NCBI GenBank assembly: GCA_017475605.1
Contig: JAFVFD010000005.1
Coordinates: 300,001 to 332,000, forward strand
DNA: 32,000 bases
Direction of reading: 5' to 3'
Source: Alphaproteobacteria bacterium
GTDB lineage: Bacteria > Pseudomonadota > Alphaproteobacteria > Rs-D84
The position numbers and the translations under genes are program-made. Under the pieces are notes generated by a model that was not told the DNA's origin, searched no databases, and was given only the letters and a program-made list of their open reading frames with translations. Positions 6,456 to 21,418 of the stretch are shown piece after piece (the stretch's first letter is position 1; the number at the start of each line of letters is the position of its first letter).

Positions 6456-7025
6456 ATGAAATTTAAATTACTGTATTTTGGCGATATTTTAGTTAACCCT
6501 AAAAAACGCGCCCAGCATATATCCGATATTCGTATGCAGTTTCACCCACAATTGAAAAAATTGCTGGAACACAGCCCATGGAACAATTTAACCCAGTATA
6601 TGATACCAAATGCGACCAAAAGTCCAATCACAACGCGTCATATTGGTGGAATTGATTGGAACCCGATTATTACACCAAACCTTAAATTGTTGGCTGAATT
6701 AGAAATCCAGATGTTACACCCGGAAATTGTCGGTGTGTCGCGTTCTGATATTGACAATCGTATAAAGACCTTGTTTGATGGCCTGCGTTGTCCACAAAAC
6801 GAACACGAAATAGGCGAAAACACACCACGTGATATCGGGCCTATTTATACACTTTTAGATGACGACCACCTTATAACAAAAATATCTGTTAATACATCAC
6901 ACTTGTTGGATACAGATTTGTTTTCGTGTAATATTCCGAAAACCCCTGATTCTATATTCATGATGATTGATGTTAATGTTCGTGTCGCCGAAGGGACATT
7001 GGAAAACCTGCCATTTATGGTATAA
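6456..7025 (+). CDS. RusA-like (Holliday-junction-resolvase fold) endonuclease homolog with N-terminal extension and an internal insertion
   Basis: Starts at ATG 6456 after AAAGGGA; the 6363 start in the ORF track overlaps the upstream gene. The motif ELEIQMLHPEIVGVSRSDIDNRIKTLFDGL...LLDDDHLITKISV aligns with E. coli RusA [26 protein letters not shown]...WLDDAQVVDYRV. The catalytic Asp positions (DxD, DD) and the Lys are conserved. Confidence 0.5.
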   Translation: MKFKLLYFGDILVNPKKRAQHISDIRMQFHPQLKKLLEHSPWNNLTQYMIPNATKSPITTRHIGGIDWNPIITPNLKLLAELEIQMLHPEIVGVSRSDIDNRIKTLFDGLRCPQNEHEIGENTPRDIGPIYTLLDDDHLITKISVNTSHLLDTDLFSCNIPKTPDSIFMMIDVNVRVAEGTLENLPFMV

Positions 7026-7032
7026 AAAAATC

Positions 7033-7065
7033 AAAAAAACACCGGCATTTGCCGGTGTTTTTTTT
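7033..7065. terminator. Bidirectional rho-independent terminator between convergent genes
   Basis: Perfect palindrome A7-CACCGGC-ATTT-GCCGGTG-T8. It sits between the stop at 7025 (+) and the stop at 7064 (-). Confidence 0.8.
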
Positions 7066-8134
7066 AACTTAAAACCGCGGTAATTTGATCTTGCATCTGG
7101 AATGTCCCAAGTACCACCCACGCGATTATTGCCGATACCAGCATTATTCCAATACTGTTTAATACATTTGATATTGATTCCATTTTACGTACAGATTCAT
7201 CCAAATAATCATTCGCAATAGATATCATATTCTTGTCAAAATCTGTCATATCTGCATAAATCATCAAATCACCAATTATTTCCTTACTTGGAAAATCACG
7301 ACCTGTTTTGGACAGCGCAACCCCAAGGTTATCACCATTGGCAATATAATGTAATGCCATATCTAAAATACTGCGCAAATACCTGCGTGCGTTATCTGCC
7401 AACATACGCATGGCGTCCGGCATTGTTATACCGGCGGCAATCATAGAAGACAACGACATTAACCAACCAACCGACACATGTATTTTATATATATTCCATG
7501 GCGGCAATTTATCAAATTTTGCACGCAAACGACCAGACCAATTAGCCAATGATAACCACACAATAAATATCAGCACAATAAATAATAACGCAAATATATA
7601 CCAATATTTTACTGTGAAATTAGACATGGATATAAGGCCACCCGCCGCACCGCGCCATATAATATCGGACCCTGCAACTTCAACCAATGGTGGAACAAGG
7701 TATAACCCAACCATAACCACAATACCAAATGTTAACACCAACAAGAATAATGGATATGCGATTGCACTGCGCACTGCGCGACGAATACGCCCCGCACTTT
7801 CCACGACACGTGTTGTGTTTTCCAGTGCGATTACTAAATTAGAAATATTACCACTTGTTACCAAAAGTGTTTCTTCGTCCGGCAACCACCCACGCGTTGT
7901 TTCAGAAAAACTCATACCGCGTTCAAGGTTTTGTTGCCACGCACGCATAACAATTGCGAACGGCTCATTTGGGTTGCGACCATTATTAGATTCTATCATT
8001 TCAAGCCGCCCCAGCGCATTCATCAATGTAAAATCATTACGCAACAACGATGCCAATTTGCGTAACAAAGCAATACGTTTTTCTGTATTAAAACGAAATA
8101 CAAGTCGTGCATACCATTGGTTAAGGCGATTCAT
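7064..8134 (-). CDS. Type II secretion / type IV pilus platform protein (GspF/PilC family; PilR-like of type IVb pili)
   Basis: Polytopic membrane protein of about 356-368 aa with two repeated T2SSF-like halves, each a cytoplasmic helical domain followed by TM segments. The preferred start, MNRLNQWY at 8134, overlaps the ATPase stop (TGATG). The ORF track start is 8170. Confidence 0.85.
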   Translation of the reverse strand: MNRLNQWYARLVFRFNTEKRIALLRKLASLLRNDFTLMNALGRLEMIESNNGRNPNEPFAIVMRAWQQNLERGMSFSETTRGWLPDEETLLVTSGNISNLVIALENTTRVVESAGRIRRAVRSAIAYPLFLLVLTFGIVVMVGLYLVPPLVEVAGSDIIWRGAAGGLISMSNFTVKYWYIFALLFIVLIFIVWLSLANWSGRLRAKFDKLPPWNIYKIHVSVGWLMSLSSMIAAGITMPDAMRMLADNARRYLRSILDMALHYIANGDNLGVALSKTGRDFPSKEIIGDLMIYADMTDFDKNMISIANDYLDESVRKMESISNVLNSIGIMLVSAIIAWVVLGTFQMQDQITAVLS

Positions 8135-9783
8135 CAATACACCCCCGGACGATCTAATAATCCAACCCAACGTTCTAATTCATCAACCCCAATAATACCG
8201 GACAGCATCAATTCAGACGCAGATTCCTTTAATGTGCGGCCGTCCATTTCTTCCAACCAATACTTGACCGCATCATCGGTCTTGCCGGCCAATGCCAACG
8301 ACAAAAACTCACCATTTGTAACAATAACTTCACCCGCCTTGATACGACCGATTGTACCTGTTCCATGGCACATATCACACCCCGCCCCACGAATAAATAC
8401 CTGTTTTAAACCAACCTCGCCAAAGGCATCTATAACGCGTTTATATGCCGGGTGTTCCGGATGATCTATCAATCTTTCGCGACAATGTGGACAGACCTTT
8501 TTAAAAAGACGCATTGATATTAACCCCCGCATCAATGTTTCTTCTTTTAACTTGAATGGTTCAATTCCCATATCAAGCAATCGTGTCAATGCCGCCATTG
8601 CCGAATTAGCATGTAATGTCGTCCAAACATTATGACCCGACAATGCGCCACGCACTGTCAATTGTGCCGCCGCCAAAGTTCGTATTTCACCAACCATCAA
8701 TGTATCAGGGTCGCTTCGCAAAGCCGCCGCCAAAGCCTCGGTATATGCTTCATCGCGTTGCTCTTCATTCATGGCGTTTGTAACAGGCATCTGGTGCGCG
8801 CCAAAAATCTTTTGTTCAACAGGGTTTTCCACAGTAATCATATTAATTTCGTAATTATGTTCCTTTAACATCATGGACATATTACGAACAAGGGTCGTTG
8901 ATTTACCAGAACTTGTTGGACCGGCAACAATTACCAAACCTGTTGGAAACGACCGCATACGACGCAATAAATGTTGTTCATATGGACCAAATTCTTGTTC
9001 GGTTTTGATTCCTTCGTTTGGATTGTCGTACAACAGGCGCATTACGACATAGCGCGACCCAAATGCAATTGGGTTAAATTGCATACGAACACTTAAAATA
9101 CCCGCCGGCAAATATAAGTCTTTCGTTCCACGAAGTGGTGTACGACCATCTTTCTGGGCCGATTGGTATTCATTTTGCGCATAGTTCGCATTTGACATAT
9201 CCGCAGATGCAAATGCCGCACGAACAAAAGATTCACCCCACGCGGAATTATATTCCAATACAGGCTGCATACTGCCATCAATACGGAAATAAATTGTTGT
9301 TTGGTCGCCAACCTCTATATGAACATCTGATACCTTTTGTGCGGCGGCGCGTGCGATAATATCGACAAAATCTTTCTGCATTTGGTTATCATAATCGCGT
9401 GATGTACGCGACGATGCGCCACCACCAATACGCGCCTCGTATTCCTTGTAAATACCGGATACCAACCCTAAATCAGAATAAAATGGTGCGCGCACGACAT
9501 ATGATTTTCGTTTTAATAAATCAATAAATGCCAACACACGACCGTCATAGCGATGTGTTCGTGAAATAATAATTTCGCCGCCTGAAAAATACGCAACTAA
9601 ACTTTGCATATCTTTGGACAGCGCAATCGTCCCACCGGTTGCGGTCAATAACCTGTTACCGTTTGAAAACAAATATTCGATAATATCTTTGTTTTCAGCG
9701 TTTTCCAAACCGGCTGGAACCGATGGTTTTTGTTCCATTGATACTGTGTTATTATTCAAATCGCTATATTTTTCCATGTCCAT
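8134..9783 (-). CDS. GspE/PilB-family secretion ATPase (PilQ-like of type IVb pili)
   Basis: 549 aa. Contains Walker A GPTSSGKST, Walker B DPDTLMVGEIR, His box GHNVWTTLHAN and the tetracysteine CPHC...CDMCHGTG characteristic of T2SS/T4P assembly ATPases. Confidence 0.9.
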   Translation of the reverse strand: MDMEKYSDLNNNTVSMEQKPSVPAGLENAENKDIIEYLFSNGNRLLTATGGTIALSKDMQSLVAYFSGGEIIISRTHRYDGRVLAFIDLLKRKSYVVRAPFYSDLGLVSGIYKEYEARIGGGASSRTSRDYDNQMQKDFVDIIARAAAQKVSDVHIEVGDQTTIYFRIDGSMQPVLEYNSAWGESFVRAAFASADMSNANYAQNEYQSAQKDGRTPLRGTKDLYLPAGILSVRMQFNPIAFGSRYVVMRLLYDNPNEGIKTEQEFGPYEQHLLRRMRSFPTGLVIVAGPTSSGKSTTLVRNMSMMLKEHNYEINMITVENPVEQKIFGAHQMPVTNAMNEEQRDEAYTEALAAALRSDPDTLMVGEIRTLAAAQLTVRGALSGHNVWTTLHANSAMAALTRLLDMGIEPFKLKEETLMRGLISMRLFKKVCPHCRERLIDHPEHPAYKRVIDAFGEVGLKQVFIRGAGCDMCHGTGTIGRIKAGEVIVTNGEFLSLALAGKTDDAVKYWLEEMDGRTLKESASELMLSGIIGVDELERWVGLLDRPGVY

Positions 9784-9802
9784 AATAAATTATGCCAGTT
9801 TA

Positions 9803-10477
9803 TTATTTTGAATTTGTAACATTTAATGTTTGTGTCTTGCCGTCTTTGGTAAATATAACACCATCGTCCAGCGATATTGATTTAACCGTCCAGCCGTCCA
9901 ATGTGCGCCCAACCGAAACACGTTTATTTTGACCGGTTGTTAAATCTGCGACTGTTGCCTGTAATTGAGAACCCGCCCCAATAACATTGACCAATTTAAA
10001 CCGTTCACCAATTTTTGATTCTTGTTCTTCTTCGACAACTTTTTTATTAGTTGTTGCCTTGGTTGTCGTAGCGGTTTCGACCGCATTTTCCAAAGATTCT
10101 TTTTCGCGCGCCAAACGTGCCGCTTCGGCTTCTAATTTTGCCATTTCGGTTTCAAGTTCCTGCTGTTGTGCTTCGGCACGACCGGAAAGCGCATCAATTT
10201 CCATATGCAGTTTAATTTTTTCAGCCGCCAATCTGTCCAGGTCCAAATCTAATTGTGCGCGTTCTTTTTCCAATTGCATTAAAACCTTTTCTTGTTCCAA
10301 ATCTGTGATTTGTTGGAAAAGGCTGCCTTCGACCTGATATTCAGCAACCGATTCCGCCGACAATTCATCAAATTCAGAATCTGTGCCATCATCGGTCGCC
10401 ATCGCCGCAAACGATGACCCCACCAAGAAACATGTTGTAAGCGCAAAGAATGCGATTTTCTTTATTTTATTTAGCAT
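9803..10477 (-). CDS. Periplasmic PilP/GspC-HR-like protein with a long acidic coiled-coil linker
   Basis: Has a signal peptide (..VGSSFAAMA). About 110 aa are E/A/L/Q-rich heptad-like sequence (LEKERAQLDLDLDRLAAEKIKLHMEIDALSGRAEAQQQELETEMAKLEAEAARLAREKESLE). The C-terminal beta domain FKLVNVIGAGSQLQATVADLTTGQNKRVSVGRTLDGWTVKSISLDDGVIFTKDGKTQTL has the PilP/GspC HR pattern. Confidence 0.55.
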   Translation of the reverse strand: MLNKIKKIAFFALTTCFLVGSSFAAMATDDGTDSEFDELSAESVAEYQVEGSLFQQITDLEQEKVLMQLEKERAQLDLDLDRLAAEKIKLHMEIDALSGRAEAQQQELETEMAKLEAEAARLAREKESLENAVETATTTKATTNKKVVEEEQESKIGERFKLVNVIGAGSQLQATVADLTTGQNKRVSVGRTLDGWTVKSISLDDGVIFTKDGKTQTLNVTNSK

Positions 10478-11732
10478 AGATTATCACCTCATAGTTCCAC
10501 GTGCGATTAGATGCATTCCAATCACAGCTTGTCATATAAACACCGCCGAAATCATCGAATATCTGCATAAACTGCATCGGTGTTAGTTTTGATGATGCCG
10601 CGATTTCCACAACATCAAAATTCTTGGTTTCAACGCCATTTGTTACCGTATCAACAACCGTTTGAATATCTACATTCGTATCAATAGACTGAAATGCAGT
10701 CATAACATCACGAACGATTGTATCTGTATCGCGTTCATCTTGACTTGGTCTGGTTTCTATTTTTGGTAATGCCGCACGCACAGATAATAAATCTTCGGAC
10801 AATTCTTGAACAAATGCACCCGGCATTAATTCCGTTGCAATTAAATAAAAATCACCAATTGTCCCGTATGTACGACGAATTTGAACGGTCGCATATTTTT
10901 CATCACATTTTGCCGTCGTCTGGGTCCAGCCTGATATAGGCTGCATCAAGAAACCAATTGCACGATAGCAAATATCTGCACGCGCCGCGACATCTGGTAA
11001 TAATTCATATGGTGGCACGATTGGTTCGGGCGGTAATTTCTTTTCAATTTGGAATTGTTCGTCTAATTCTTTATTTTTTTCTTCTATCTGTCGGCGATAT
11101 TCTGCGACCTTTTCTGGATCTATTTGCGATATTTCATTATGCTCGCTAACCGATTTAACCACTGAATCACGATACAACATAACCATCGCCATAACAAATA
11201 ACAATACCAGTATTGCCGATATAATTATTGAACGCATCATACTTATCGACCGTAATACAGCATGCGAATGCCCGGTTATAACTTCATCTAAATCGCGTTC
11301 AACCGCGCGTGGCATTCCCCATGCGCCAGGTGCAATAAAGGCACCCCAATCGGGCATTTCGGACATTCTTGAATATTCTGCGCGCGCATCCGCTTCATTT
11401 TCATAAATACGATCAATTAAAATAATACCATTTCTGACGGCGACCATATAAAACCCTTGGTCTACTGCAAAAACCGCCAAGAAAGACGAATGTTCGGAAA
11501 GTGCATCTACAACCTCGGCTGCGGCGGACGGCATACCACCCTTGTGCCCGACACGACGCGAAGACAAACCAATCATAAAATTATATTCAATGTATAAACT
11601 GTAATGGCCATCCACACCATGTGCAAGGCGACGCGCATACGCACGACCACCCCCGTTTCCCGCGACAACAGGTTGCCAAAACAGCCCTACGGCATATTTT
11701 TTTCTATGAACCGATATAGTTTGATTTGCCAA
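10467..11732 (-). CDS. Bitopic inner-membrane protein, PilO-like (type IVb pilus accessory protein of R64/PAPI-1 type)
   Basis: 421 aa with a TTG start at 11732 preceded by GGTAGAGAG. It has an N-terminal cytoplasmic domain (KKYAVGLFWQPV...), a single central TM segment (IIISAILVLLFVMAMVMLY), a short coiled coil and a periplasmic C-terminal domain. Its size and its position directly upstream of the PilP-like, ATPase and platform genes match pilO-pilP-pilQ-pilR order. Family assignment is by architecture and synteny only. Confidence 0.45.
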   Translation of the reverse strand: MANQTISVHRKKYAVGLFWQPVVAGNGGGRAYARRLAHGVDGHYSLYIEYNFMIGLSSRRVGHKGGMPSAAAEVVDALSEHSSFLAVFAVDQGFYMVAVRNGIILIDRIYENEADARAEYSRMSEMPDWGAFIAPGAWGMPRAVERDLDEVITGHSHAVLRSISMMRSIIISAILVLLFVMAMVMLYRDSVVKSVSEHNEISQIDPEKVAEYRRQIEEKNKELDEQFQIEKKLPPEPIVPPYELLPDVAARADICYRAIGFLMQPISGWTQTTAKCDEKYATVQIRRTYGTIGDFYLIATELMPGAFVQELSEDLLSVRAALPKIETRPSQDERDTDTIVRDVMTAFQSIDTNVDIQTVVDTVTNGVETKNFDVVEIAASSKLTPMQFMQIFDDFGGVYMTSCDWNASNRTWNYEVIIYAK

Positions 11733-11754
11733 TTTTTCTCTCTACCTTGGGTTA

Positions 11755-11784
11755 ATTATAACACAAAAAGGCAACCCTTGGCAA
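11755..11784 (-). promoter_or_regulatory. Candidate sigma70-like promoter of the pilO-like operon
   Basis: On the minus strand: TTGCCA (11784..11779), 18 nt, TATAAT (11760..11755). It lies between the upstream terminator and the TTG start. Confidence 0.4.
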
Positions 11785-11795
11785 ATACAGATTAA

Positions 11796-11830
11796 CAAAA
11801 ACCCCATCATTTTTTGATGGGGCTTTTTTT
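11796..11830. terminator. Rho-independent terminator after the lipoprotein gene, insulating it from the pilO-like operon
   Basis: AAAAA-CCCCATCA-TTTTT-TGATGGGG-CTTTTTTT: an 8-bp GC-containing stem flanked by A- and T-runs. It overlaps the stop codon at 11829-11831. Confidence 0.7.
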
Positions 11831-12305
11831 AATTATTACATGGACCATATGTCGTTGTACATTCCACCGTTTCGTATCCATATTCATAATCTGGCATCGG
11901 TGTTGTGTATTCCGCCGGCATCACAGAAACAGTTGCCGGTCCCCCATCACGCGCGGTACGAACCGCGTTTGGATGTGGACAATCATAGACATTTGCGGTC
12001 AACACAAATGCACGTTCCGGCCCAAATATAACCCATTTATTCGGGCGCGTGCGTTGCGCAACAATCCAATAAGCATTTCCTGGACGTGCCTGGTCTGCGA
12101 TACGATTTTCAAGATAACGGCGCGCATCTTCGGCATCATAGACTGAAACCTCGGATTCCAATTTATACAAAAATGTACAACCGATTGGTTCCGCGTCCAG
12201 TTGCGTGATGTATTCGCTGCCATTTTCGTTTTTTATCATACCACCACAGGCGGCCAACAAAACCAGCGCACAAAGTGCCATAAACTTTTTCATTTTATTC
12301 CCCAT
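11829..12305 (-). CDS. Putative lipoprotein with a Tyr/Thr/Cys-rich C-terminal tail
   Basis: Signal peptide with lipobox (ALVLLAAC|GG). The mature domain contains paired Cys (GCTF...VYDC) and ends PAEYTTPMPDYEYGYETVECTTTYGPCNN. No family is confidently recognised; it resembles small DUF4156-type lipoproteins. Confidence 0.55.
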   Translation of the reverse strand: MGNKMKKFMALCALVLLAACGGMIKNENGSEYITQLDAEPIGCTFLYKLESEVSVYDAEDARRYLENRIADQARPGNAYWIVAQRTRPNKWVIFGPERAFVLTANVYDCPHPNAVRTARDGGPATVSVMPAEYTTPMPDYEYGYETVECTTTYGPCNN

Positions 12306-12312
12306 TTACCTT

Positions 12313-13251
12313 TTATTGTTCAATTATATCATAATTTGATGCATCACTGAACAACTTTTTCAAAACAATGTTATTAAGTGCATGACTGCCCTTGTATGAT
12401 TCAAGTTTTCCACAAATCATACCGCCACTTGTCGCCATATCACCAATTGCGTCTATGATTTTATGGCGCACAAATTCGTCCGGCCACATCAATTTATTAA
12501 GTGTTCCGTCCCCATCGTTATTAAGTGCGATTACATTTGTTTCGTCCGCGCCACGTCCCATACCATGCGCCTTTAAATATTCCCATTCGGAATATTTTCC
12601 AAATGTTCGTGCGCGGGCAATTTGCTTGATAAATGTATTTTGCGCCCGTTTTGAACCGTCAAACACATATTCGTATGTCTGCGCCCCTATTATTTTTTCA
12701 GGATATACAAGTGTTGCGGTTATATCCAAACTTTTACCGTCATTTGGTGATAATTTTACATACCCATTACTTTTACGATGCGCAATTTTATCCATAACCC
12801 ATAATTTTATACGGAAAACCAATGGTAATTGACGGCGAACTTCGCGTGTGTACGCAATAACAGGTTTTTTAACAATAATTTTACGCATTTTACCACCGGT
12901 CGTTCCAGCCGCCATTATTTCACGCAAAAATAAATCTGCACTGCCGTCCATAATAGGCGTTTCCACACCGTCTATATCAATAATAACACTGTCCACACCC
13001 GCGATAAATAATGCCGCCATTAAATGTTCAATTGTTTGAACATGCGCACCATGTGTATCACCAATGGTTGTATTACGCATTTTTGTTTCACCGACATTAT
13101 CATATGCCGTCGCAATCATTTTATTTTTATCTATATCAATTCTGCGGAAAAATATTCCAGGCTTTTTAGACGGGCGCAAAACAATATTAACCGGTAATCC
13201 GGAATGAATACCTTTGCCTTTTAATTTTATTGTTTTTAACAAAGTTGTCAT
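12313..13251 (-). CDS. lpxC: UDP-3-O-acyl-N-acetylglucosamine deacetylase
   Basis: Contains GKGIHSGLPVNIVLRP, TIEHLMAALFIAGVD and EFVRHKIIDAIGDM. The preferred start, ATG 13251, forms an ATGA overlap with the lpxK stop. The ORF track start is 13272. Confidence 0.95.
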   Translation of the reverse strand: MTTLLKTIKLKGKGIHSGLPVNIVLRPSKKPGIFFRRIDIDKNKMIATAYDNVGETKMRNTTIGDTHGAHVQTIEHLMAALFIAGVDSVIIDIDGVETPIMDGSADLFLREIMAAGTTGGKMRKIIVKKPVIAYTREVRRQLPLVFRIKLWVMDKIAHRKSNGYVKLSPNDGKSLDITATLVYPEKIIGAQTYEYVFDGSKRAQNTFIKQIARARTFGKYSEWEYLKAHGMGRGADETNVIALNNDGDGTLNKLMWPDEFVRHKIIDAIGDMATSGGMICGKLESYKGSHALNNIVLKKLFSDASNYDIIEQ

Positions 13252-14153
13252 TTGATTTTCCCCCGCAACCAATCCCAGAAAAGATTATCCATGTTCGTGT
13301 CCAAACGCGCATATTTTATTTTATCGCGCACATTTTCGGGCAAACGCACCCAATCTTTTTCGGTTGTAACCAATTTAGCATTTTTCTTTTTCGCCAACGC
13401 GAACAGTTTTTCTATATCTTCATCTGTATATTGGTAATGGTCGGCAAACGCACGTGTTGCCACAACGTTATTCAGGCTTTTGAAAAACTTTCTTGGGTAC
13501 CCAATACCAGCAAACGCAACCAACGGCACATCTTCGTCATATGGCGATATTGTTTGATTTTTCGCATAAAAAACCGGAATACCCGCAGGTAATGTAAAGT
13601 TTTTCCGCGGATTATTTGAACGAATTATTATAATGGCATCTGCGCGCGCCGCATGACTTTTCGGTTCACGCAACGGCCCCGATGGTAACAAGAAACCATT
13701 TCCATAACCCAACCCTTCGTCAAAAACCAAAATGGAAACATCTTTTTCAATCTTTGGATTTTGGAAACCGTCGTCCATAACAATCGGTGTATTTTCGCGC
13801 TTTTGTTTATCCAATAATATAACATTACTTTTTCTGTCGCCGGTATGAACAATTAAACCGGTGCGTGATAACATTGATGCTTCGTCCCCTATATTGCCGG
13901 TTTTCGCACTTTTTTTATACCCATGCATAACGACCGGCGAATCCAGGTATGTCGCAATTGCGCGAACAATTGGTGTTTTACCAACACCGCCCGCCAAAAT
14001 ATTTCCAACACAAATCACACCGCGCCGCGATTTATATGGACGCAACCCGCGAAACCAATACACCACACGCGACATAAAATAATATATAAAAGATACCGGT
14101 AATAATATTATTGCAATCGGTGTTTTGTGCATAAACCACCATGGTGTTTTCAT
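13248..14153 (-). CDS. lpxK: Tetraacyldisaccharide 4'-kinase
   Basis: 301 aa with an N-terminal membrane anchor and the P-loop VGNILAGGVGKTP typical of LpxK. Confidence 0.9.
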   Translation of the reverse strand: MKTPWWFMHKTPIAIILLPVSFIYYFMSRVVYWFRGLRPYKSRRGVICVGNILAGGVGKTPIVRAIATYLDSPVVMHGYKKSAKTGNIGDEASMLSRTGLIVHTGDRKSNVILLDKQKRENTPIVMDDGFQNPKIEKDVSILVFDEGLGYGNGFLLPSGPLREPKSHAARADAIIIIRSNNPRKNFTLPAGIPVFYAKNQTISPYDEDVPLVAFAGIGYPRKFFKSLNNVVATRAFADHYQYTDEDIEKLFALAKKKNAKLVTTEKDWVRLPENVRDKIKYARLDTNMDNLFWDWLRGKIK

Positions 14154-15049: not shown

Positions 15050-15106
<57 letters not shown>

Positions 15107-15126
<20 letters not shown>

Positions 15127-15162
15127 GTTAAAATAAAAAATACGCCCCTGTGGCGTATTTTT
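15107..15162 (+). repeat. Direct repeat copy 1 (56 nt): tRNA-fMet T-loop to 3' end plus its terminator
   Basis: AAATCCACACTCCGCAACCAGTTAAAATAAAAAATACGCCCCTGTGGCGTATTTTT is identical to 15346-15401. Confidence 0.95.
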
Positions 15163-15163
15163 T
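15135..15163 (+). terminator. Rho-independent terminator of tRNA-fMet
   Basis: AAAATACGCC-CCTGT-GGCGTATTTT followed by further T residues. Confidence 0.75.
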
Positions 15164-15345
15164 GTTTTAGTTGTGTTGTGATTTGTTGTTTGTGCCATGC
15201 AACACAGTTGCTTGGTTCAAAATTTGTATGCGCGAACGAGCATCGGGCCCCGCAAAATTTAAAAAATTTTGTGGGTGATACTAGCGAAGTTCAAGCAACT
15301 ACAAATTTGCGCACAGTCGCGGCGCATTTATGCGACGGACGAGCG

Positions 15346-15401
15346 AAATCCACACTCCGCAACCAGTTAAAATAAAAAATACGCCCCTGTGGCGTATTTT
15401 T
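15346..15401 (+). repeat. Direct repeat copy 2 (56 nt): displaced partial tRNA-fMet 3' end plus terminator copy
   Basis: Perfect 56/56 match to 15107-15162. The preceding bases (GAGCG) cannot form a T-stem, so this copy is a tRNA fragment and not a gene. Confidence 0.95.
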
Positions 15402-15485
15402 ATTTATTTTCCTAGGATACACCCCCTATTGAAAATATTGCTAGTGGCGCAATAAAATTAAATTATCAAAAACATGGGGGAAAAT

Positions 15486-15746
15486 ATGACACATGATGAT
15501 ATTTGGTCTGCGATTGAAAAATTCGCAACCGAACATGGAATGTCTTGTTCGGGCCTGGCGCGCAGCAGCGGACTGGACCCAACAACATTTAACCGCAGTA
15601 AACGTTGGTCCAAATTTGGTCAGCCGCGTTGGCCTTCGACCGCCAGTATTGCGAAAATATTATCATCAACAGGTCAAAAAATAGATGATTTTGTTAAATA
15701 TATTCCTGATGATATTAAAAAAAATGGACCTGGTAATCAGATGTAA
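15486..15746 (+). CDS. HTH transcriptional regulator resembling the N-terminal domain of CI/S24-type repressors (no peptidase domain)
   Basis: MTHDDIWSAIEKFATEHGMSCSGLARSSGLDPTTFNRSKRWSKFGQPRWPSTASIAKIL matches the conserved alphaproteobacterial repressor-like HTH pattern (GLA..aGLDPT.FN.SKR....RWPST.SI.KIL). The start was chosen at ATG 15486 because GGGGGA lies 5 nt upstream. The ORF track start is 15474. Confidence 0.7.
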   Translation: MTHDDIWSAIEKFATEHGMSCSGLARSSGLDPTTFNRSKRWSKFGQPRWPSTASIAKILSSTGQKIDDFVKYIPDDIKKNGPGNQM

Positions 15747-15775
15747 AAAAAAAACGCCCGTTTGGGCGTTTTTGT
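15745..15775. terminator. Bidirectional rho-independent terminator
   Basis: A-run, AAAACGCCC-GTTT-GGGCGTTTT, T-run, between the convergent stops at 15746 (+) and 15775 (-). Confidence 0.75.
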
Positions 15776-16617
15776 TATTTTTGTTTTTCCATTTCAGCAA
15801 TACATTTTTTAAGTGAATCTTTCCAATGTGGAATTTCAAGACCAAAAGTATTTATAATATCTGATTTATCCAAAACACTGTAATATGGACGCTTTGCGCG
15901 TGTTGGATATTCGGTCGTTTTTATTGGATTCACACGACATTTTAATCCAGATAAATCCATAATTTCATGCGCGAAATCGTACCATGAACAAACACCCATA
16001 TTTGTAAAGTGATATATACCACGAGTTTTTAGATTCATCTGTGGCAAGATTTTTACAATTGCATCTGCCAAATCAGCCGCATATGTTGGTGTTCCAATTT
16101 GATCAGCAACAACATTTATTGATTCTTTTTCTGCGCCAAGTTTCCGCATAGTTTTTACAAAATTATTTCCATATGGTGAATAAAGCCATGCGGTACGAAT
16201 TATAACCGAATGAATCGCATACCTTAACACCTTTACTTCACCGGCAAATTTTGTTTTACCATATATAGAAATTGGATTTATTTCGTCTTTGGTGCTATCG
16301 GGGCTATATGGTTTATGTGCCGTTCCATCAAAAACATAATCAGTTGATATATGAACTATTTTTGCGCCAGTTTTTGCAAGATTTGCTGGACCATCAACAT
16401 TTATCTTGGTTGCTAAATCTATATTATCTTCGGCTTTATCAACAGCGGTATATGCGGCACAGTTTATAATTGTATCAATTTTGTATTTTTTAACAAAATC
16501 TGCAACTAAACTTTCGTGTGTAATATCTAAATCATTAACATCTGTGCGTATTGCATCTGGTAAACGTTTAGACAATTCTGTCCCCAGTTGCCCATTACCG
16601 CCCGTTATTAAGTACAT
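15775..16617 (-). CDS. rfbD: dTDP-4-dehydrorhamnose reductase
   Basis: 280 aa. Contains MYLITGGNGQLG (Rossmann GxxGxxG), STDYVFDG and YGKTK (the YxxxK catalytic motif), all typical of RmlD. Confidence 0.9.
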   Translation of the reverse strand: MYLITGGNGQLGTELSKRLPDAIRTDVNDLDITHESLVADFVKKYKIDTIINCAAYTAVDKAEDNIDLATKINVDGPANLAKTGAKIVHISTDYVFDGTAHKPYSPDSTKDEINPISIYGKTKFAGEVKVLRYAIHSVIIRTAWLYSPYGNNFVKTMRKLGAEKESINVVADQIGTPTYAADLADAIVKILPQMNLKTRGIYHFTNMGVCSWYDFAHEIMDLSGLKCRVNPIKTTEYPTRAKRPYYSVLDKSDIINTFGLEIPHWKDSLKKCIAEMEKQK

Positions 16618-17158
16618 CTTTTAACCTCTTTGCAATTCTGTCTTTTTCACTTGTTATAATTTTATCCGCTGGAATCCGCCAATCTATATTTATATCAGGA
16701 TCATCGAAACTAATACTAAATTCAGATTCTTTGTGATATAAATTATCGCATTTATACGCAAAAACCGCCTTGTCAGAAAGGACAGAAAATCCATGTAAAA
16801 ATCCACGCGGTATAAACAATTGACGTTTGTTTTCATCGGATAATTCAACTGCAACATGTTTACCAAATGTTGGTGAGTTTTTTCTGAAATCAACCGCAAC
16901 ATCTAATACGGTGCCATATAAAACACGGACCAATTTTGCCTGGGCATGATTACCAGTTTGACAATGCAGACCACGCACCACGCCGTACGATGATTTTGAT
17001 TGATTATCCTGGACGAAACGATTTGTTATTCCATTTTTAACAAATTCGGCTTCGTTATAACTTTCAAAAAAATATCCCCTGTCATCGCGAAATATTTTTG
17101 GTTCAACGATGATTACCCCGGGCAATTCTGTTTTTATAAAGTTCATTTTTTTCACCAT
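16595..17158 (-). CDS. rfbC: dTDP-4-dehydrorhamnose 3,5-epimerase
   Basis: Contains FRDDRGYFFESY, VQDNQSKSSYGVVRGLHCQ and RQLFIPRGFLHGF, the RmlC cupin motifs. An alternative ATG lies at 17146. Confidence 0.9.
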   Translation of the reverse strand: MVKKMNFIKTELPGVIIVEPKIFRDDRGYFFESYNEAEFVKNGITNRFVQDNQSKSSYGVVRGLHCQTGNHAQAKLVRVLYGTVLDVAVDFRKNSPTFGKHVAVELSDENKRQLFIPRGFLHGFSVLSDKAVFAYKCDNLYHKESEFSISFDDPDINIDWRIPADKIITSEKDRIAKRLKDVLNNGR

Positions 17159-18020
17159 ATACTTTCTTTAAATATTCCTTGTATTTACCATCATGCAAAT
17201 CTTGTATTATTTTCAACATTTGTTCATTGTTGATAAACCCACAATTAAAAGCAATTTCTTCTATACAGGCAATTTTCAACCCCTGACGTTGTTCGATTAT
17301 TTGAACAAAATTACCAGCCTCCATTAAACTGTCTGGGGTACCTGCGTCCAACCACGCATTTCCGCGATGCATCGGAACAACTGACATACGCCCTTCGTAT
17401 AAATATTGATTATTTAAATCTGTTATTTCCAATTCGCCACGCGCCGATGGTTTAAGATTTTTTGCTTTTTCCACAACATCAGATGGATAAAAATATAATC
17501 CAACAGATGCATAGTTTGATTTAGGTTTTGCTGGTTTTTCTTCTATTGATATCGCACGAAAGTTTTCATCAAATTCAACAACACCAAATCTTTCAGGGTC
17601 CGAAACATGGTGCGCAAATATAGTAGCAGATTTTCCAATATTAGATTTTATTTTTTCTTTAAATTCTTTCAACTGACCATTTATATAAAATATATTATCG
17701 CCTAATATTAAACACACATCATCTTTATCAATAAAATCTGCCCCAATTGTAAAAGCCTGGGCAATTCCCTTGGGTTCGGCCTGGACTGCATATTTTATAT
17801 TCATACCCAATTGTTTACCATCACCGAACAATTGTTCAATATTTGGTGTATCTTTTGGTGTTGATATAATAAGTATATCACGAATACCAAAAAGCATTAA
17901 TGTTGAAAGTGGATAATATATCATCGGTTTATCATAAACCGGTAATAATTGCTTGGATATTGTTTTGGTAAGTGGATAAAGTCTTGTACCACTGCCCCCA
18001 GCCAGAATAATACCTTTCAT
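17103..18020 (-). CDS. rfbA: Glucose-1-phosphate thymidylyltransferase
   Basis: Contains MKGIILAGGSGTRLYPLTKTISKQLLPVYDKPMIYYPLS, the canonical RmlA N-terminus. 305 aa. The 3' end overlaps rfbC by 44-56 nt. Confidence 0.95.
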   Translation of the reverse strand: MKGIILAGGSGTRLYPLTKTISKQLLPVYDKPMIYYPLSTLMLFGIRDILIISTPKDTPNIEQLFGDGKQLGMNIKYAVQAEPKGIAQAFTIGADFIDKDDVCLILGDNIFYINGQLKEFKEKIKSNIGKSATIFAHHVSDPERFGVVEFDENFRAISIEEKPAKPKSNYASVGLYFYPSDVVEKAKNLKPSARGELEITDLNNQYLYEGRMSVVPMHRGNAWLDAGTPDSLMEAGNFVQIIEQRQGLKIACIEEIAFNCGFINNEQMLKIIQDLHDGKYKEYLKKVYGEKNELYKNRIARGNHR

Positions 18021-18081: not shown

Positions 18082-18714
18082 TTATTTAAGGCATTTTTTA
18101 AGTTCTGAATAGTCTTCTATTATATCAATATTTTTATTTTTAATTTCTTCTGCGGCATGTATTTTTTGCTTTATCAGCACAATATTAGGGTGTGATTGTA
18201 ATTCGTTATTTAATTTTTCAATTGCCCAATCTATTTCTGATGTATCTTTTATAAAAATCGGCATCACAGAATCAGCCGCCGAATATAACGCATTATGTAA
18301 ATCGGTTTTATAATCATCAATAACAGATAAATATGCATCTATATGCTTATTTTCATGATTAAGTATCGCTGTATATGAACAACTGTTTTTGTTATGTCTT
18401 TTATCAATTTTTACCAGAAAATCGCTATATCCAATTGTTGAATATACAGATTTTAATGAAATACAAAACCCATCTTCGATTGATGTAATATCGGTATTAA
18501 TATCATAATTATCAACCAATGTTGCCACAACATTACCATGTAATAAATCCATTGATTCGTGTGGTTGAATTACACTTTTATTCCATTGTGGAATATTGAT
18601 AACTATTTTTGGTTTAATCTTGTATGTGGCGCATTCGTTGGCATTGGCAATATTTAACACACCAAATAAAGATAAAAATATTGCTAAAAATTTACATGAA
18701 TTAAACATTTCCAC
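18082..18714 (-). CDS. Secreted hypothetical protein with an HExxH motif (possible DUF922-like Zn-metallopeptidase)
   Basis: Signal peptide FLAIFLSLFGVLNIANA|NE. HENKH is encoded at 18343-18357. There are four Cys residues. The start is GTG 18714 or ATG 18708, either of which overlaps the virB4 stop (18701-18703). Hand counts on sampled lines give about 23-25% GC, the lowest in the window. Confidence 0.45.
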   Translation of the reverse strand: MEMFNSCKFLAIFLSLFGVLNIANANECATYKIKPKIVINIPQWNKSVIQPHESMDLLHGNVVATLVDNYDINTDITSIEDGFCISLKSVYSTIGYSDFLVKIDKRHNKNSCSYTAILNHENKHIDAYLSVIDDYKTDLHNALYSAADSVMPIFIKDTSEIDWAIEKLNNELQSHPNIVLIKQKIHAAEEIKNKNIDIIEDYSELKKCLK

Positions 18715-21121: not shown

Positions 21122-21418
21122 TTATGCCACCAATCGTTTCGGTATTTTTTGTTTAAATAACTGTATTTTTGCCGCAACTATCTGCCCCAGTTGCGGATCG
21201 CGTTTAGAATAAATCGCCATAATTGAATGAACCACAATAACAGATACCAAAAAATACAGCGGATTTATTGCGTCTTTAAGCCCAGATACCAACAATCCAG
21301 CAACAAAAAACACTATAAATATCAGAAATTGAACAGCAAAATTTATCACAGCAAGATTATAAGGCACATAAAATATGCGCGCTGGATTTGCCAATGCTTT
21401 TAATACTTGCTGTTTCAT
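21122..21418 (-). CDS. virB3: Type IV secretion system protein VirB3/TrbD-like
   Basis: 98 aa, with LKALANPARIFYVPYNLAVINF followed by two hydrophobic helices, the VirB3 architecture. It abuts the virB4 start directly (stop at 21122, ATG at 21121). Confidence 0.7.
   Translation of the reverse strand: MKQQVLKALANPARIFYVPYNLAVINFAVQFLIFIVFFVAGLLVSGLKDAINPLYFLVSVIVVHSIMAIYSKRDPQLGQIVAAKIQLFKQKIPKRLVA

What the first reader, a model, noticed from the sequence alone, without database searches (positions are those of the whole stretch)
7064..11830. Self-contained PilO-PilP-PilQ-PilR-like operon with no pilin, secretin or prepilin peptidase
Four co-directional genes of 421, 224, 549 and 356-368 aa encode, in order, a bitopic inner-membrane protein, a periplasmic PilP/GspC-HR-like protein, a GspE/PilB-type ATPase with a tetracysteine motif, and a GspF/PilC-type platform. 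That order and those sizes match pilO-pilP-pilQ-pilR of type IVb thin-pilus loci (IncI1 R64, PAPI-1 pil2). The junctions are coupled: an 11-nt overlap at 10467-10477 and TGATG at 8134. In those loci the secretin gene pilN sits upstream of pilO and the pilin gene pilS sits downstream of pilR. Here both positions are occupied by strong terminators, at 11796-11830 and 7033-7065. The operon has its own promoter-like element and a TTG start. The flanks are core genes (lpxC/lpxK on one side, gyrB on the other). Nowhere in the 32 kb is there a relaxase, integrase, shufflon, small ORF with a class III signal peptide, or A24 peptidase. By eye, its base composition resembles gyrB and lpx rather than a recent import. 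This leaves two readings. It could be the motor and alignment subcomplex of a pilus whose other parts are scattered, as T4SS genes are in Rickettsiales-like genomes. Or it could be a reduced, possibly repurposed type IV filament engine. A virB3-virB4 fragment sits 7 kb away.
Basis: partly seen in the sequence, partly recalled or inferred. Interest (0 to 1): 0.7.

Follow-up and report, generated by a model that had tools for sequence, protein, structure and literature searches.

The report
Core operon of a scattered pilus
These four genes are the inner-membrane motor of a type IVb pilus in a tiny-genome gut bacterium; the missing parts (secretin, pilins) are not lost but encoded at other places in genomes of this lineage, so the operon is ordinary in kind though unusually conserved.

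Summary
Four intact, tightly packed minus-strand genes (7064-11732) encode a PilO2/BfpC-type bitopic protein, a PilP-like periplasmic protein, a BfpD/PilQ-type extension ATPase and a GspF/PilC-type platform. They have their own promoter and terminator. No pilin, secretin or peptidase lies in the 32 kb.

The window comes from a 'Candidatus Enterousia' (order Rs-D84) gut MAG, a lineage with genomes under 1 Mb. The unit is contiguous in 76 of 80 related species, and its ATPase is nearly as conserved as GyrB.

The 'reduced, repurposed engine' reading is not supported, because the partner genes exist elsewhere in the lineage:
- A TcpQ plus PilN-type lipoprotein secretin locus lies on the same contig as the unit in two species and in the same MAG in a third.
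- A pilin with a TcpA/CofA-like fold follows dnaX, beside three large putative minor pilins.

So this is the motor/alignment operon of a dispersed, vertically inherited type IVb pilus. A prepilin peptidase and a retraction ATPase were not found, and the window's own genome could not be searched. It is a new member of a known kind and of moderate interest.

The parts
11755..11784 (-). Promoter of the unit: TTGCCA, 18-nt spacer, TG-extended TATAAT
   Evidence: 11 of 12 consensus matches. The pattern TTGCCn-N17/18-TGTGTTATAAT, an AGAGAGA ribosome-binding site and the TTG start recur upstream of PilO in other species, including relocated units (L009, L012). A relaxed pattern matches in 66 of 78 loci.
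10467..11732 (-). PilO2/BfpC-type bitopic inner-membrane protein (421 aa): cytoplasmic domain, one TM helix (~165-190), coiled coil, periplasmic alpha-beta-beta tandem
   Evidence: PF06864 scores 34.7 bits, above the 26.7 cut-off. phmmer to Bosea PilO2 gives E down to 2e-24 and to BfpC 1e-7. The lineage profile hits PDB 4BYZ/4BZ0 at 7e-5 and BfpC 3VHJ at 3e-3. NCBI names relatives 'type 4b pilus protein PilO2'. The AF2 model has pLDDT ~88 for residues 245-421 and a TM helix at 165-193.
9803..10477 (-). PilP-like periplasmic protein (224 aa): signal peptide, long coiled coil, C-terminal beta domain
   Evidence: TIGR03021 scores 35.4 bits against a 34.65 cut-off. hhalign of the lineage profile against PilP/BfpU references aligns the C-terminal domain (E = 2.5e-4, probability 43%). 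The gene sits between the PilO and ATPase genes as in every reference cluster. This is the weakest of the four assignments.
8134..9783 (-). Type IVb extension ATPase (549 aa; BfpD/PilQ class) with Walker A and a tetracysteine motif
   Evidence: T2SSE scores 212 bits. The best solved relative is BfpD at 264 bits over residues 36-535, against at most 159 bits for PilF/GspE/PilB. The best plasmid hits are T4b ATPases at 33-37% identity. The C4 motif is kept in 79/79 orthologues. Median identity across species is 82%, against 87% for GyrB.
7064..8134 (-). GspF/PilC-type polytopic platform protein (356 aa; alternative TTG start at 8170 gives 368 aa)
   Evidence: PF00482 matches in two stretches at 78 bits. 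phmmer to the Bosea platform gives E ~ 1e-72 and to BfpE 1e-60. The 356-aa start is used in public gene calls, and its ATG overlaps the ATPase stop (TGATG).
7033..7064 (-). Intrinsic terminator closing the unit
   Evidence: A 14-bp stem with 6 GC pairs is followed by a T-run, directly after the platform stop codon. A hairpin plus T-run is found downstream of PilR in 38 of 76 loci.
11802..11822 (.). Boundary hairpin: terminator of the upstream lpxK-lpxC-lipoprotein operon, not part of the pilus unit
   Evidence: An 8-bp stem with 5 GC pairs and T-runs on both strands. The 154-aa lipoprotein gene (11829-12293) never accompanies the unit when the unit is relocated (L009, L012, L028, L032, L036, L040, L053).

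Best explanation
The four genes are the inner-membrane assembly core of a chromosomal, vertically inherited type IVb pilus in a reduced-genome gut alphaproteobacterium (Ca. Enterousia, order Rs-D84).

**How it most likely works**
- The hexameric BfpD/PilQ-class ATPase drives the polytopic platform to extract processed pilins from the inner membrane and add them to the filament base.
- The bitopic PilO2/BfpC-type protein couples ATPase and platform in the cytoplasm to the periplasm.
- The PilP-like protein bridges to the outer-membrane secretin.

**Where the other parts are**
The rest of the machine is encoded at other chromosomal sites in this lineage, each embedded among housekeeping genes:
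- TcpQ plus a PilN-family lipoprotein secretin lie next to rpsT-plsY-dprA-dnaA.
- A small TcpA/CofA-fold major pilin is translationally coupled to dnaX and followed by an OmpA-type lipoprotein.
- Beside the pilin sits a divergent cluster with three 400-450-aa proteins carrying pilin-type N-termini. These are likely tip or initiator minor pilins like TcpB, CofB or PilV.

**Shown versus inferred**
- Shown: the gene identities, the operon structure, the conservation, and the existence and co-occurrence of the partner genes in the lineage.
- Inferred: that the window's own genome carries those partners, and the physical contacts between the parts.
- Inferred: the biological role. I take this to be attachment to a partner or host cell, since these bacteria are metabolically dependent and lack flagella. 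Attachment may bring the cell's split VirB/VirD4 type IV secretion system into contact.
For: **Family identity of the four proteins**
- Profile hits.
- Direct comparison with reference T4b components.
- Best solved relatives: ATPase; PilO.
- PilP profile comparison.
- The same order PilO2-PilP-ATPase-platform occurs in four annotated T4b clusters.

**Source lineage**
- The window belongs to Enterousia/Rs-D84.
- That lineage has genomes under 1 Mb, no flagella and a proposed partner-dependent lifestyle (PMC12306168).

**Conservation of the unit**
- It is contiguous in 76 of 80 species-level loci, and lpxC lies within 1.6 kb upstream in 68.
- Median identities are PilQ 82%, PilR 71%, PilO 56% and PilP 55%. 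For comparison, GyrB is 87% and LpxC 67%.
- The promoter is conserved, even in relocated units.

**Secretin and TcpQ**
- The secretin scores 251 bits on TIGR02520 (PilN family), and TcpQ scores 67 bits on PF10671.
- The metagenome scan found 164 relatives. TcpQ is adjacent in 71 of 80 loci.
- The secretin is on the same contig as the unit in L038 (9 kb away) and L140 (7 kb away).
- It is in the same MAG as a window-type arrangement: RGIG3440, L051 plus L103.
- In an outgroup-rooted NJ tree of PilQ+PilR, the two secretin-proven species that could be placed (L038, L051) bracket 73 of 77 species, including the window.

**Pilin**
- The family has 1380 clusters, against 839 for PilO.
- The motif G|RS(L/M)(I/L)E occurs in 116 of 120 members.
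- The AF2 model (pLDDT 85) matches TcpA and CofA at E ~ 1e-5 and TM-score 0.70-0.72. By sequence, TcpA scores E = 3e-6.
- The pilin is on the same contig as the unit in L009, L036 and L040.
- The dnaX-pilin-OmpA triad recurs in every context examined.

**Large putative minor pilins**
- Their class III-type N-termini are conserved across species.
Against: - The pilin, secretin and TcpQ genes of the window's own genome were not retrieved. The inference rests on co-occurrence in relatives and on a rough NJ bracket without support values.
- No A24 prepilin peptidase and no PilT/BfpF-type ATPase were found in about 2.8 Mb of lineage DNA around the three loci.
- The PilP assignment is borderline (hhalign probability 43%).
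- Foldseek gave no significant match for the PilO model.
- The three large proteins match no known minor pilin beyond their N-termini.
- The pilin has a 6-residue leader and Arg at +1, which is atypical for type IVb pilins.
- The proposed role (partner attachment) has no direct evidence.
Confidence: 0.78

Rival explanations
1. Reduced or repurposed engine: in the window's own genome (or in much of the lineage) the four-gene unit works without a canonical filament, secretin or peptidase, for example as a periplasmic or membrane-remodelling motor.
For: - The 32 kb holds no partner genes.
- No A24 peptidase or retraction ATPase was found in any held locus.
- The window's own genome was not searchable.
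- In the protein database, secretin clusters are far fewer than PilO clusters (65 against 839).
Against: - Secretin plus TcpQ and pilins are widespread in the lineage and proven in the same contig or MAG as the unit.
- The secretin is extremely conserved: 96% identity between two genomes whose DprA is 62% identical. That explains the small number of 90%-identity clusters.
- The pilin cleavage motif is under selection.
- The PilP C-terminal domain, whose role in homologous systems is secretin contact, is conserved.
- Secretin-bearing species bracket the window.
Confidence: 0.06
2. The machine is the same dispersed type IVb system, but its main job is protein secretion through a short pseudopilus (T2SS-like, as TCP secretes TcpF and CFA/III secretes CofJ) rather than adhesion by a long fibre.
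For: - The ATPase also scores well on the GspE model (225 bits).
- T4b systems of the TcpA/CofA pilin class, which the lineage pilin resembles, are known to secrete a soluble factor (established knowledge of TCP and CFA/III).
- Reduced genomes lack other obvious export routes (PMC12306168).
Against: - No T2SS-specific components (GspC/L/M/G-K equivalogs) were detected.
- The secretin is PilN-family, not GspD.
- No candidate secreted substrate gene is linked to any of the three loci.
- The two functions are not mutually exclusive.
Confidence: 0.12
3. The system is a DNA-uptake (competence) pilus serving natural transformation or nucleotide scavenging in a nucleotide-auxotrophic bacterium.
For: - dprA lies three genes downstream of the secretin in 47 of 80 loci.
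- These bacteria lack nucleotide biosynthesis (PMC12306168).
- The pilin is small with a short leader, like competence and T4a pilins.
Against: - dprA is a common housekeeping-linked gene, and its neighbours here (rpsT, plsY, dnaA) are unrelated to pili.
- No comEA or comEC was seen in any held locus.
- T4b systems of the PilO2/BfpC type are not known DNA-uptake machines.
- ComGA and ComGB models score far below their cut-offs.
Confidence: 0.1
4. Remnant of a recently acquired plasmid or ICE thin-pilus cluster (R64/PAPI-1-like) that lost its flanks.
For: PilO2-type T4b clusters are typically plasmid- or island-borne.
Against: - Composition is native.
- The nearest plasmid ATPase is only 37% identical.
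- The chromosomal context is the same in 68 of 80 species, and divergence tracks the core genes.
- All four ORFs are intact.
- No integrase or relaxase was found.
Confidence: 0.02

Closest known systems
PilO2-type type IVb pili of plasmids and islands (IncI1 R64 thin pilus pilL-V, PAPI-1 pil2; annotated examples seen here: Bosea pBSY19_1, Methylovorus pMsip01)
   Same: - The core order is the same: TcpQ/PilL, PilN secretin, PilO2, PilP, ATPase, platform.
- The lineage has a PAP_PilO protein, a PilN-family lipoprotein secretin and a TcpQ-domain partner.
- It has large pilin-like proteins of PilV-like size.
- It co-occurs with a type IV secretion system.
   Different: - The genes are chromosomal and split into at least three loci among housekeeping genes.
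- Inheritance is vertical across a whole order-level lineage.
- Identity is only 33-37% for the ATPase.
- No shufflon, PilT-like ATPase, A24 peptidase or lytic transglycosylase was found.
- The pilin resembles TcpA/CofA more than PilS.
Bundle-forming pilus of EPEC (bfpC-bfpU-bfpD-bfpE with bfpG/bfpB)
   Same: - BfpD is the best solved relative of the ATPase (264 bits, full length).
- BfpC, BfpE, BfpG and BfpB all find their counterparts.
- The four-gene order is identical.
   Different: - BFP is a single 14-gene plasmid operon that includes bfpF (retraction), bfpP (peptidase) and the small minor pilins bfpI/J/K.
- None of these was found here.
Toxin-coregulated pilus (TcpA) and CFA/III (CofA) pilins
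   Same: The predicted pilin fold matches TcpA and CofA (TM-score 0.70-0.72, E ~ 1e-5). TcpA is also the best sequence hit. Large minor pilins of 400-520 aa (TcpB, CofB) parallel the three 400-450-aa proteins (size analogy from established knowledge).
   Different: - The pilin is much smaller (146 aa mature).
- Its leader is 6 residues rather than about 25.
- It has Arg at +1.
- The large proteins share no detectable sequence similarity with TcpB or CofB.
Type II secretion system inner-membrane platform (GspC/L/M/E/F)
   Same: The architecture is analogous: a C4-motif ATPase, a polytopic platform, a bitopic cytoplasm-to-periplasm coupler, and a periplasmic secretin-contacting protein.
   Different: All Gsp equivalog models score far below their cut-offs (GspE 225 against 630, GspF 64 against 424). 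The secretin is PilN-type rather than GspD.
Type IV pili of reduced-genome episymbionts (Saccharibacteria)
   Same: This is a functional analogy. A pilus system is retained in a tiny, partner-dependent genome, and in Saccharibacteria the pili mediate host binding (PMC11623550).
   Different: The phylum is different (monoderm-like Patescibacteria) and the pilus class is different. No experimental data exist for Rs-D84.

Membership tests
Type IVb pilus (PilO2/BfpC-containing class) | Extension ATPase of the BfpD/PilQ/TcpT group with a C4 zinc motif | tested here: met
   BfpD scores 264 bits over the full length, against at most 159 bits for PilF/GspE/PilB. The top plasmid hits are T4b ATPases. 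The C4 motif is kept in 79/79 orthologues. No formal phylogeny was built.
Type IVb pilus (PilO2/BfpC-containing class) | PAP_PilO / PilO2 / BfpC bitopic protein | tested here: met
   PF06864 scores 34.7 bits, above the 26.7 cut-off. Bosea PilO2 matches at E = 2e-24 and BfpC at 1e-7. PDB 4BYZ/4BZ0 and 3VHJ are hit. The fold search was uninformative.
Type IVb pilus (PilO2/BfpC-containing class) | PilP/BfpU-type periplasmic protein encoded between PilO and the ATPase | tested here: met
   TIGR03021 scores 35.4 bits against a 34.65 cut-off. hhalign gives E = 2.5e-4 but only 43% probability. Position and topology fit. This is a borderline pass.
Type IVb pilus (PilO2/BfpC-containing class) | GspF/PilC-family platform with two T2SSF domains | tested here: met
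   PF00482 matches in two stretches. BfpE matches at E = 1e-60 and the Bosea platform at 1e-72.
Type IVb pilus (PilO2/BfpC-containing class) | PilN/BfpB-family lipoprotein secretin with a TcpQ/BfpG partner, encoded with the core | tested here: not met
   This feature is absent from the 32-kb window. It is present elsewhere in the lineage. The secretin scores 251 bits on TIGR02520 and TcpQ 67 bits on PF10671. TcpQ is adjacent to the secretin in 71/80 loci. The secretin is on the same contig as the unit in L038 and L140 and in the same MAG for L051 + L103. So the component exists but is not clustered.
Type IVb pilus (PilO2/BfpC-containing class) | Major pilin with the type IVb fold and a class III signal peptide | tested here: met
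   This was tested in the lineage, not in the window. The model has pLDDT 85 and its top hits are TcpA, CofA and PilS. The G(-1)/E(+5) motif occurs in 116/120 members.
Type IVb pilus (PilO2/BfpC-containing class) | Long (about 15-30 aa) pilin leader peptide, the classical T4b hallmark | tested here: not met
   The leader is 6 residues in 115 of 120 family members.
Type IVb pilus (PilO2/BfpC-containing class) | Dedicated A24 prepilin peptidase (PilU/BfpP/TcpJ) | tested here: inconclusive
   BfpP and E. coli A24 queries gave no hit, and a motif-plus-topology scan found nothing, in about 2.8 Mb around the three loci. Whole genomes could not be scanned.
IncI1 R64 / PAPI-1 conjugative thin pilus (subfamily) | Location on a conjugative plasmid or ICE with a PilV shufflon/adhesin and a link to conjugation genes | tested here: not met
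   The context is a conserved chromosomal one in 68/80 species. No relaxase, integrase or shufflon was found. Bosea PilV finds no homologue.
Type II secretion system | GspE/GspF equivalogs, GspC/L/M, a GspD secretin and GspG-K pseudopilins | tested here: not met
   GspE scores 225 against a 630 cut-off and GspF 64 against 424. The secretin's best model is PilN, not GspD. The pilins give only weak N-terminal hits to Gsp pseudopilins.
Tad/Flp pilus | TadA/CpaF ATPase, TadB/C platforms and Flp pilin | tested here: not met
   The TadA-family model scores 36 bits against a 373 cut-off. The platform is a single two-domain GspF-type protein.

The most novel reading that the evidence does not exclude
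An entire order of gut alphaproteobacteria with genomes under 1 Mb and a partner-dependent lifestyle depends on an atypical type IVb pilus. Its genes have been dispersed into housekeeping operons, with the pilin translationally coupled to dnaX. Its pilins have a 6-residue leader and Arg at +1. It works without a canonical A24 prepilin peptidase or retraction ATPase. It acts as the cell-contact organelle that positions a split VirB/VirD4 secretion system on a partner cell, making it a proteobacterial counterpart of the pilus-driven episymbiosis of Saccharibacteria.
Probability: 0.15. Interest if true: 0.7.

Novelty: new member of a known kind. Interest (0 to 1): 0.4.

Why it matters
Type IVb pili of the PilO2/BfpC class are known mainly from plasmids and pathogenicity islands of enteric pathogens. 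Here the same machine is a fixed, vertically inherited chromosomal trait of a whole lineage of uncultured gut bacteria with genomes under 1 Mb.

Its motor ATPase and its secretin are among the best conserved genes in those genomes. In a genome that has shed most biosynthesis, that retention points to an important function. The published genome survey of the lineage proposed a partner-dependent lifestyle and did not report pili for it (PMC12306168).

The pilus gives a concrete, testable candidate for how these bacteria attach to or exploit a partner. It is also a caution for window-based scans: an 'orphan' core operon can simply be one piece of a dispersed system.

Tried and rejected
1. **Upstream lipoprotein.** The 154-aa lipoprotein was considered as a PilL, pilotin or TcpQ analogue and rejected. 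It matches no family, follows lpxC by 7 nt, is separated from PilO by a terminator and a promoter, and never moves with relocated units.
2. **orf189 and orf88.** These downstream ORFs were considered as partners and rejected. orf189 stays with gyrB when that block is inverted and has no pilus-related signal.
3. **hyp221 and hyp210.** These were considered as a hidden peptidase and rejected. hyp221 has no TM helix and hyp210 has a single N-terminal hydrophobic segment, not a polytopic A24-type topology; neither matches a family.
4. **Strict class III regex.** The first pattern missed the lineage pilins because of Arg at +1. It was replaced by a relaxed pattern.
6. **Large pilin-like proteins.** Sequence searches against PDB, Pfam and NCBIfam found nothing beyond the N-termini.
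7. **Linking a pilin to the window's genome.** I tried to find a pilin in the window's own samples or in an assembly that also holds a window-type unit. Six look-ups gave other Enterousia assemblies only.
8. **Rarity of the secretin.** I first read the small number of secretin clusters as restricted distribution. I revised this after seeing 96% identity between divergent genomes, truncation at contig ends, and 164 mostly full-length relatives on long contigs.
9. **Literature.** No paper describes pili in Rs-D84 or Enterousia. The 2023 Enterousia paper and the mSphere supplements are not held.

Full report
**1. Observation**

The window carries four intact, co-directional minus-strand ORFs:
- 10467-11732 (421 aa, TTG start)
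- 9803-10477 (224 aa)
- 8134-9783 (549 aa)
- 7064-8134 (356 aa; 368 aa from an upstream TTG)

There is an 11-nt overlap at 10467-10477, a 19-nt gap before the ATPase gene, and a TGATG stop/start overlap at 8134.

The transcription signals also check out:
- A near-consensus promoter with an extended -10 box (TTGCCA, 18 nt, TATAAT; 11 of 12 matches) lies at 11784-11755.
- A strong intrinsic terminator (7064-7033) follows the last gene.
- The hairpin at 11802-11822 terminates the upstream lpxK-lpxC-lipoprotein operon.

GC content of the unit (0.39-0.44) matches that of gyrB and lpxC/lpxK. Strict and relaxed scans of all six frames found no ORF with a class III signal peptide. Pfam scans of the other larger ORFs in the window found only core genes, a virB3-virB4 pair and an rmlACD block.

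**2. What the four proteins are**

The 421-aa protein is a PilO2/BfpC-type protein.
- It passes Pfam's curated cut-off for PAP_PilO (34.7 against 26.7 bits).
- It matches the annotated PilO2 of a Bosea plasmid (E down to 2e-24) and BfpC (1e-7).
- As a lineage profile it hits the solved N-terminal domains of PilO2-type proteins (4BYZ/4BZ0, 7e-5) and BfpC (3VHJ, 3e-3).
- An AlphaFold model built on 38 homologues gives a cytoplasmic domain, one TM helix (165-193), a coiled coil and a confident periplasmic alpha-beta-beta tandem (pLDDT about 88).
- Foldseek found no significant PDB match for the whole model. The other fold libraries were unavailable.

The 224-aa protein is the weakest assignment.
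- It just passes TIGR03021 PilP (35.4 against 34.65 bits).
- Its conserved C-terminal domain aligns to PilP/BfpU references by profile-profile comparison (E = 2.5e-4, probability 43%).

The ATPase is clearly of the type IVb extension class.
- Its best solved relative is BfpD, at 264 bits over residues 36-535. PilF, GspE and PilB score at most 159 bits.
- Its best plasmid matches are T4b ATPases at 33-37% identity.
- The tetracysteine motif is kept in 79 of 79 orthologues.

The platform has two T2SSF domains and matches BfpE at 1e-60.

The order PilO2-PilP-ATPase-platform is identical in four annotated reference clusters: Bosea pBSY19_1, Methylovorus pMsip01, an E. coli plasmid and BFP.

**3. 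Where the window comes from, and how the unit behaves in evolution**

The exact ATPase sequence is encoded on a 364-kb ruminant-gut metagenome contig and four other contigs with the same gene order. Relatives of the PilO-like protein were found in 80 species-level genomes. They are labelled 'Candidatus Enterousia sp.', 'Alphaproteobacteria bacterium' or 'uncultured Rickettsiales'.

A published survey places Enterousia in order Rs-D84. It reports genomes mostly under 1 Mb, no flagella and loss of most biosynthesis, and it proposes an obligate symbiont or parasite lifestyle. It reports type IV pili only for a different lineage (PMC12306168).

Across the 80 loci:
- The four genes are contiguous in 76.
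- lpxC lies within 1.6 kb upstream in 68, and gyrB is in the locus in 59.
- Median identity to the window is 82% for the ATPase, 71% for the platform, 56% for PilO and 55% for PilP.
- For comparison, GyrB is 87%, and LpxC and LpxK are 67%.

In seven species the unit sits in a different context. There it moved as exactly four genes with the same promoter, ribosome-binding site and TTG start, and without the upstream lipoprotein gene. The unit is therefore an autonomous, strongly constrained, vertically inherited operon. It is not a recent import or a decaying remnant.

**4. The partners exist, at other loci**

*Pilins*
- In L036 and L040 a 152-aa ORF starting MK(T/S)ESG|RSLIEV... lies 1.5 kb upstream of the relocated unit. 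In L009 a 154-aa paralogue lies 9 kb downstream.
- The family has 1380 clusters in the protein database, against 839 for PilO.
- 116 of 120 retrieved members carry G|RS(L/M)(I/L)E after a 6-residue leader.
- An AlphaFold model (pLDDT 85, pTM 0.72) has only type IVb major pilins as significant structural matches. These are TcpA (E = 1e-5, TM 0.70) and CofA (TM 0.72), with PilS following weakly below significance (E = 0.06, TM 0.39).
- TcpA is also the best sequence hit (3e-6).
- In every context examined the pilin gene overlaps the dnaX stop codon and is followed at once by an OmpA-type lipoprotein gene.
- Where enough upstream sequence was held (L036, L040, L086-L089, L096-L098), a divergent five-gene cluster sits next to it. 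Three of its products, each 400-450 aa, have conserved pilin-type N-termini: RG|NFLLQALLA, RG|ASITEVLLAMA and RG|SMLVELLLS.
- These three have no other recognisable similarity. Calling them large minor pilins in the manner of TcpB, CofB or PilV is an inference from N-terminus and size.

*Secretin and TcpQ*
- A Bosea PilN query hit an ORF at the edge of L038, 9 kb upstream of PilO.
- Its relatives are PilN-family secretins (TIGR02520, 251 bits). They are preceded by a TcpQ-domain protein (PF10671, 67 bits).
- A metagenome scan found 164 relatives. The 80 loci kept hold full-length genes of about 543-559 aa with a lipoprotein signal. Many are on contigs of 50-935 kb.
- TcpQ is adjacent in 71 of the 80, and rpsT-plsY-dprA-dnaA usually lie downstream.
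- The secretin C-domain is 96% identical between two genomes whose PlsY is 79% and DprA 62% identical. It is as constrained as the ATPase.

*Direct links between secretin and unit*
- They share a contig in L038, 9 kb apart.
- They share a contig in L140, 7 kb apart, next to a window-like DUF374-lpxK-lpxC-lipoprotein-PilOPQ block.
- They share a MAG in RGIG3440. Contig 18 (L051) has the unit in the window-type lpx/gyrB context, and contig 59 (L103) has the secretin.
- In an outgroup-rooted neighbour-joining tree of PilQ+PilR, the last common ancestor of L038 and L051 subtends 73 of 77 species, including the window. This tree is rough and carries no support values.

**5. What was not found**

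No A24 prepilin peptidase, PilT/BfpF-type ATPase or lytic transglycosylase was detected in about 2.8 Mb of lineage DNA. That DNA covers the regions around the unit, the secretin and the pilin. The searches used BfpP and E. coli A24 queries and a motif-plus-topology scan.

These loci cover only a fraction of each roughly 0.9-Mb genome, and whole genomes could not be scanned. The invariant G(-1)/E(+5) site argues that processing is maintained. The pilin and secretin genes of the window's own genome were not retrieved despite several attempts.

**6. Most likely mechanism**

The window holds the inner-membrane core of a dispersed type IVb pilus.
- The BfpD-class ATPase powers the platform to load processed pilins into the filament base.
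- The PilO2/BfpC-type protein links ATPase and platform to the periplasm.
- The PilP-like protein connects to the TcpQ-assisted PilN secretin.
- The large pilin-like proteins probably prime assembly and form the tip.

The gene identities, operon structure, conservation and co-occurrence are shown. The protein contacts are inferred from homologous systems.

The biological role is also inferred. The lineage is metabolically dependent and has no flagella, and the system is very strongly conserved. I therefore favour attachment to a partner or host cell. Attachment may position the cell's split VirB/VirD4 type IV secretion system. virB3-virB4 lies 7 kb from the unit in the window, and virD4 lies next to the pilin-OmpA pair in several genomes. 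Type IV pili play such a role in episymbiotic Saccharibacteria (PMC11623550).

Secretion of a soluble factor, as in TCP and CFA/III, and DNA uptake remain possible additional or alternative roles.

**7. Comparison with known systems, novelty and verdict**

The system works like, and is a member of, the PilO2/BfpC-containing type IVb pili.

Features met:
- Extension ATPase of the BfpD/PilQ class.
- Two-domain platform.
- PAP_PilO protein.
- PilP-like protein (borderline).
- Gene order.
- PilN-family secretin plus TcpQ, in the lineage.
- T4b pilin fold, in the lineage.

Features not met or open:
- The components are not clustered.
- The pilin leader is short, not the classical long T4b leader.
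- The system is not on a plasmid or island.
- The peptidase is unresolved.

It is not a T2SS or a Tad system.

The 'reduced, repurposed engine' reading is not. I rate this a new member of a known kind.

Interest is moderate at 0.4. The operon itself is ordinary. The notable points are that a plasmid-style T4b pilus is fixed, dispersed into housekeeping operons and highly conserved across an order of bacteria with genomes under 1 Mb, and that the searchable literature had not noted it.

Noticed in passing
window 6456-7025 (+): A 189-aa ORF with no family match (weak RusA-like stretch only) has a median identity of 87% across 58 species, as high as GyrB. It stays next to gyrB when the gyrB block is inverted, so it is linked to gyrB rather than to the pilus unit.
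   Followed up: partly
window 11829-12293 (-): A conserved 154-aa lipoprotein (lipobox LAAC) starts 7 nt after lpxC and is separated from the pilus unit by a terminator and a promoter. It never travels with relocated units, so it is probably an LPS-pathway lipoprotein. It has a faint LptM-like N-terminus.
   Followed up: partly
window 18082-21418 (-); L096-L099 and L107-L111 near 11170-13420: A split rvh-like type IV secretion system is present. virB3-virB4 plus a conserved 210-aa signal-peptide protein lie in the window. In several genomes a VirD4/TraG coupling protein sits directly beside the pilin-OmpA pair. Whether the pilus and this secretion system work together is untested.
   Followed up: no
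window 15050-18020: The rmlD-rmlC-rmlA block next to tRNA-Met (15050-15126) and a small HTH gene (15474-15746) has low GC (0.30-0.36). It is present in only 8-11 of 80 related loci, so it looks like a variable surface-polysaccharide island.
   Followed up: partly
L096 10001-10459 and equivalents (L086-L089, L104, L107-L128): The lineage's major pilin has a type IVb fold but only a 6-residue leader and Arg as the first mature residue (G|RSLIE). Its gene overlaps the dnaX stop codon and abuts an OmpA-lipoprotein gene, so a pilin is embedded in a replication-gene operon.
   Followed up: partly
L096 3007-7883 (-); L036 1023-5896 (-): A conserved five-gene cluster lies divergent from dnaX. It encodes three proteins of 400-450 aa with pilin-type N-termini, a 175-aa MJ0042-type zinc-ribbon membrane protein and a 153-aa secreted protein. 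None has a family assignment beyond the N-terminus or zinc ribbon.
   Followed up: partly
L094 8748-11286; L140 8824-11326; L129-L208: In the protein database the secretin genes of this lineage are almost always truncated at contig ends and flagged partial. In another collection they are full-length on long contigs. The gene is 96% identical between genomes whose DprA is 62% identical. Near-identity between co-occurring species may break assemblies and drop the gene from MAGs.
   Followed up: partly
L038 3033-4055; L103 4201-5217; 47 of L129-L208: dprA (DNA-processing protein A) lies three genes downstream of the secretin, between plsY and dnaA, in most genomes. This could be coincidental housekeeping synteny or a hint of DNA uptake.
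   Followed up: no
window 21939-22628 (-): A 229-aa ORF gives a sub-threshold SufBD-core match (25.1 bits, cut-off 27), while full-length sufB/sufC flank the TcpQ-secretin locus in other genomes (L094, L140). It may be a divergent or truncated Suf component.
   Followed up: no
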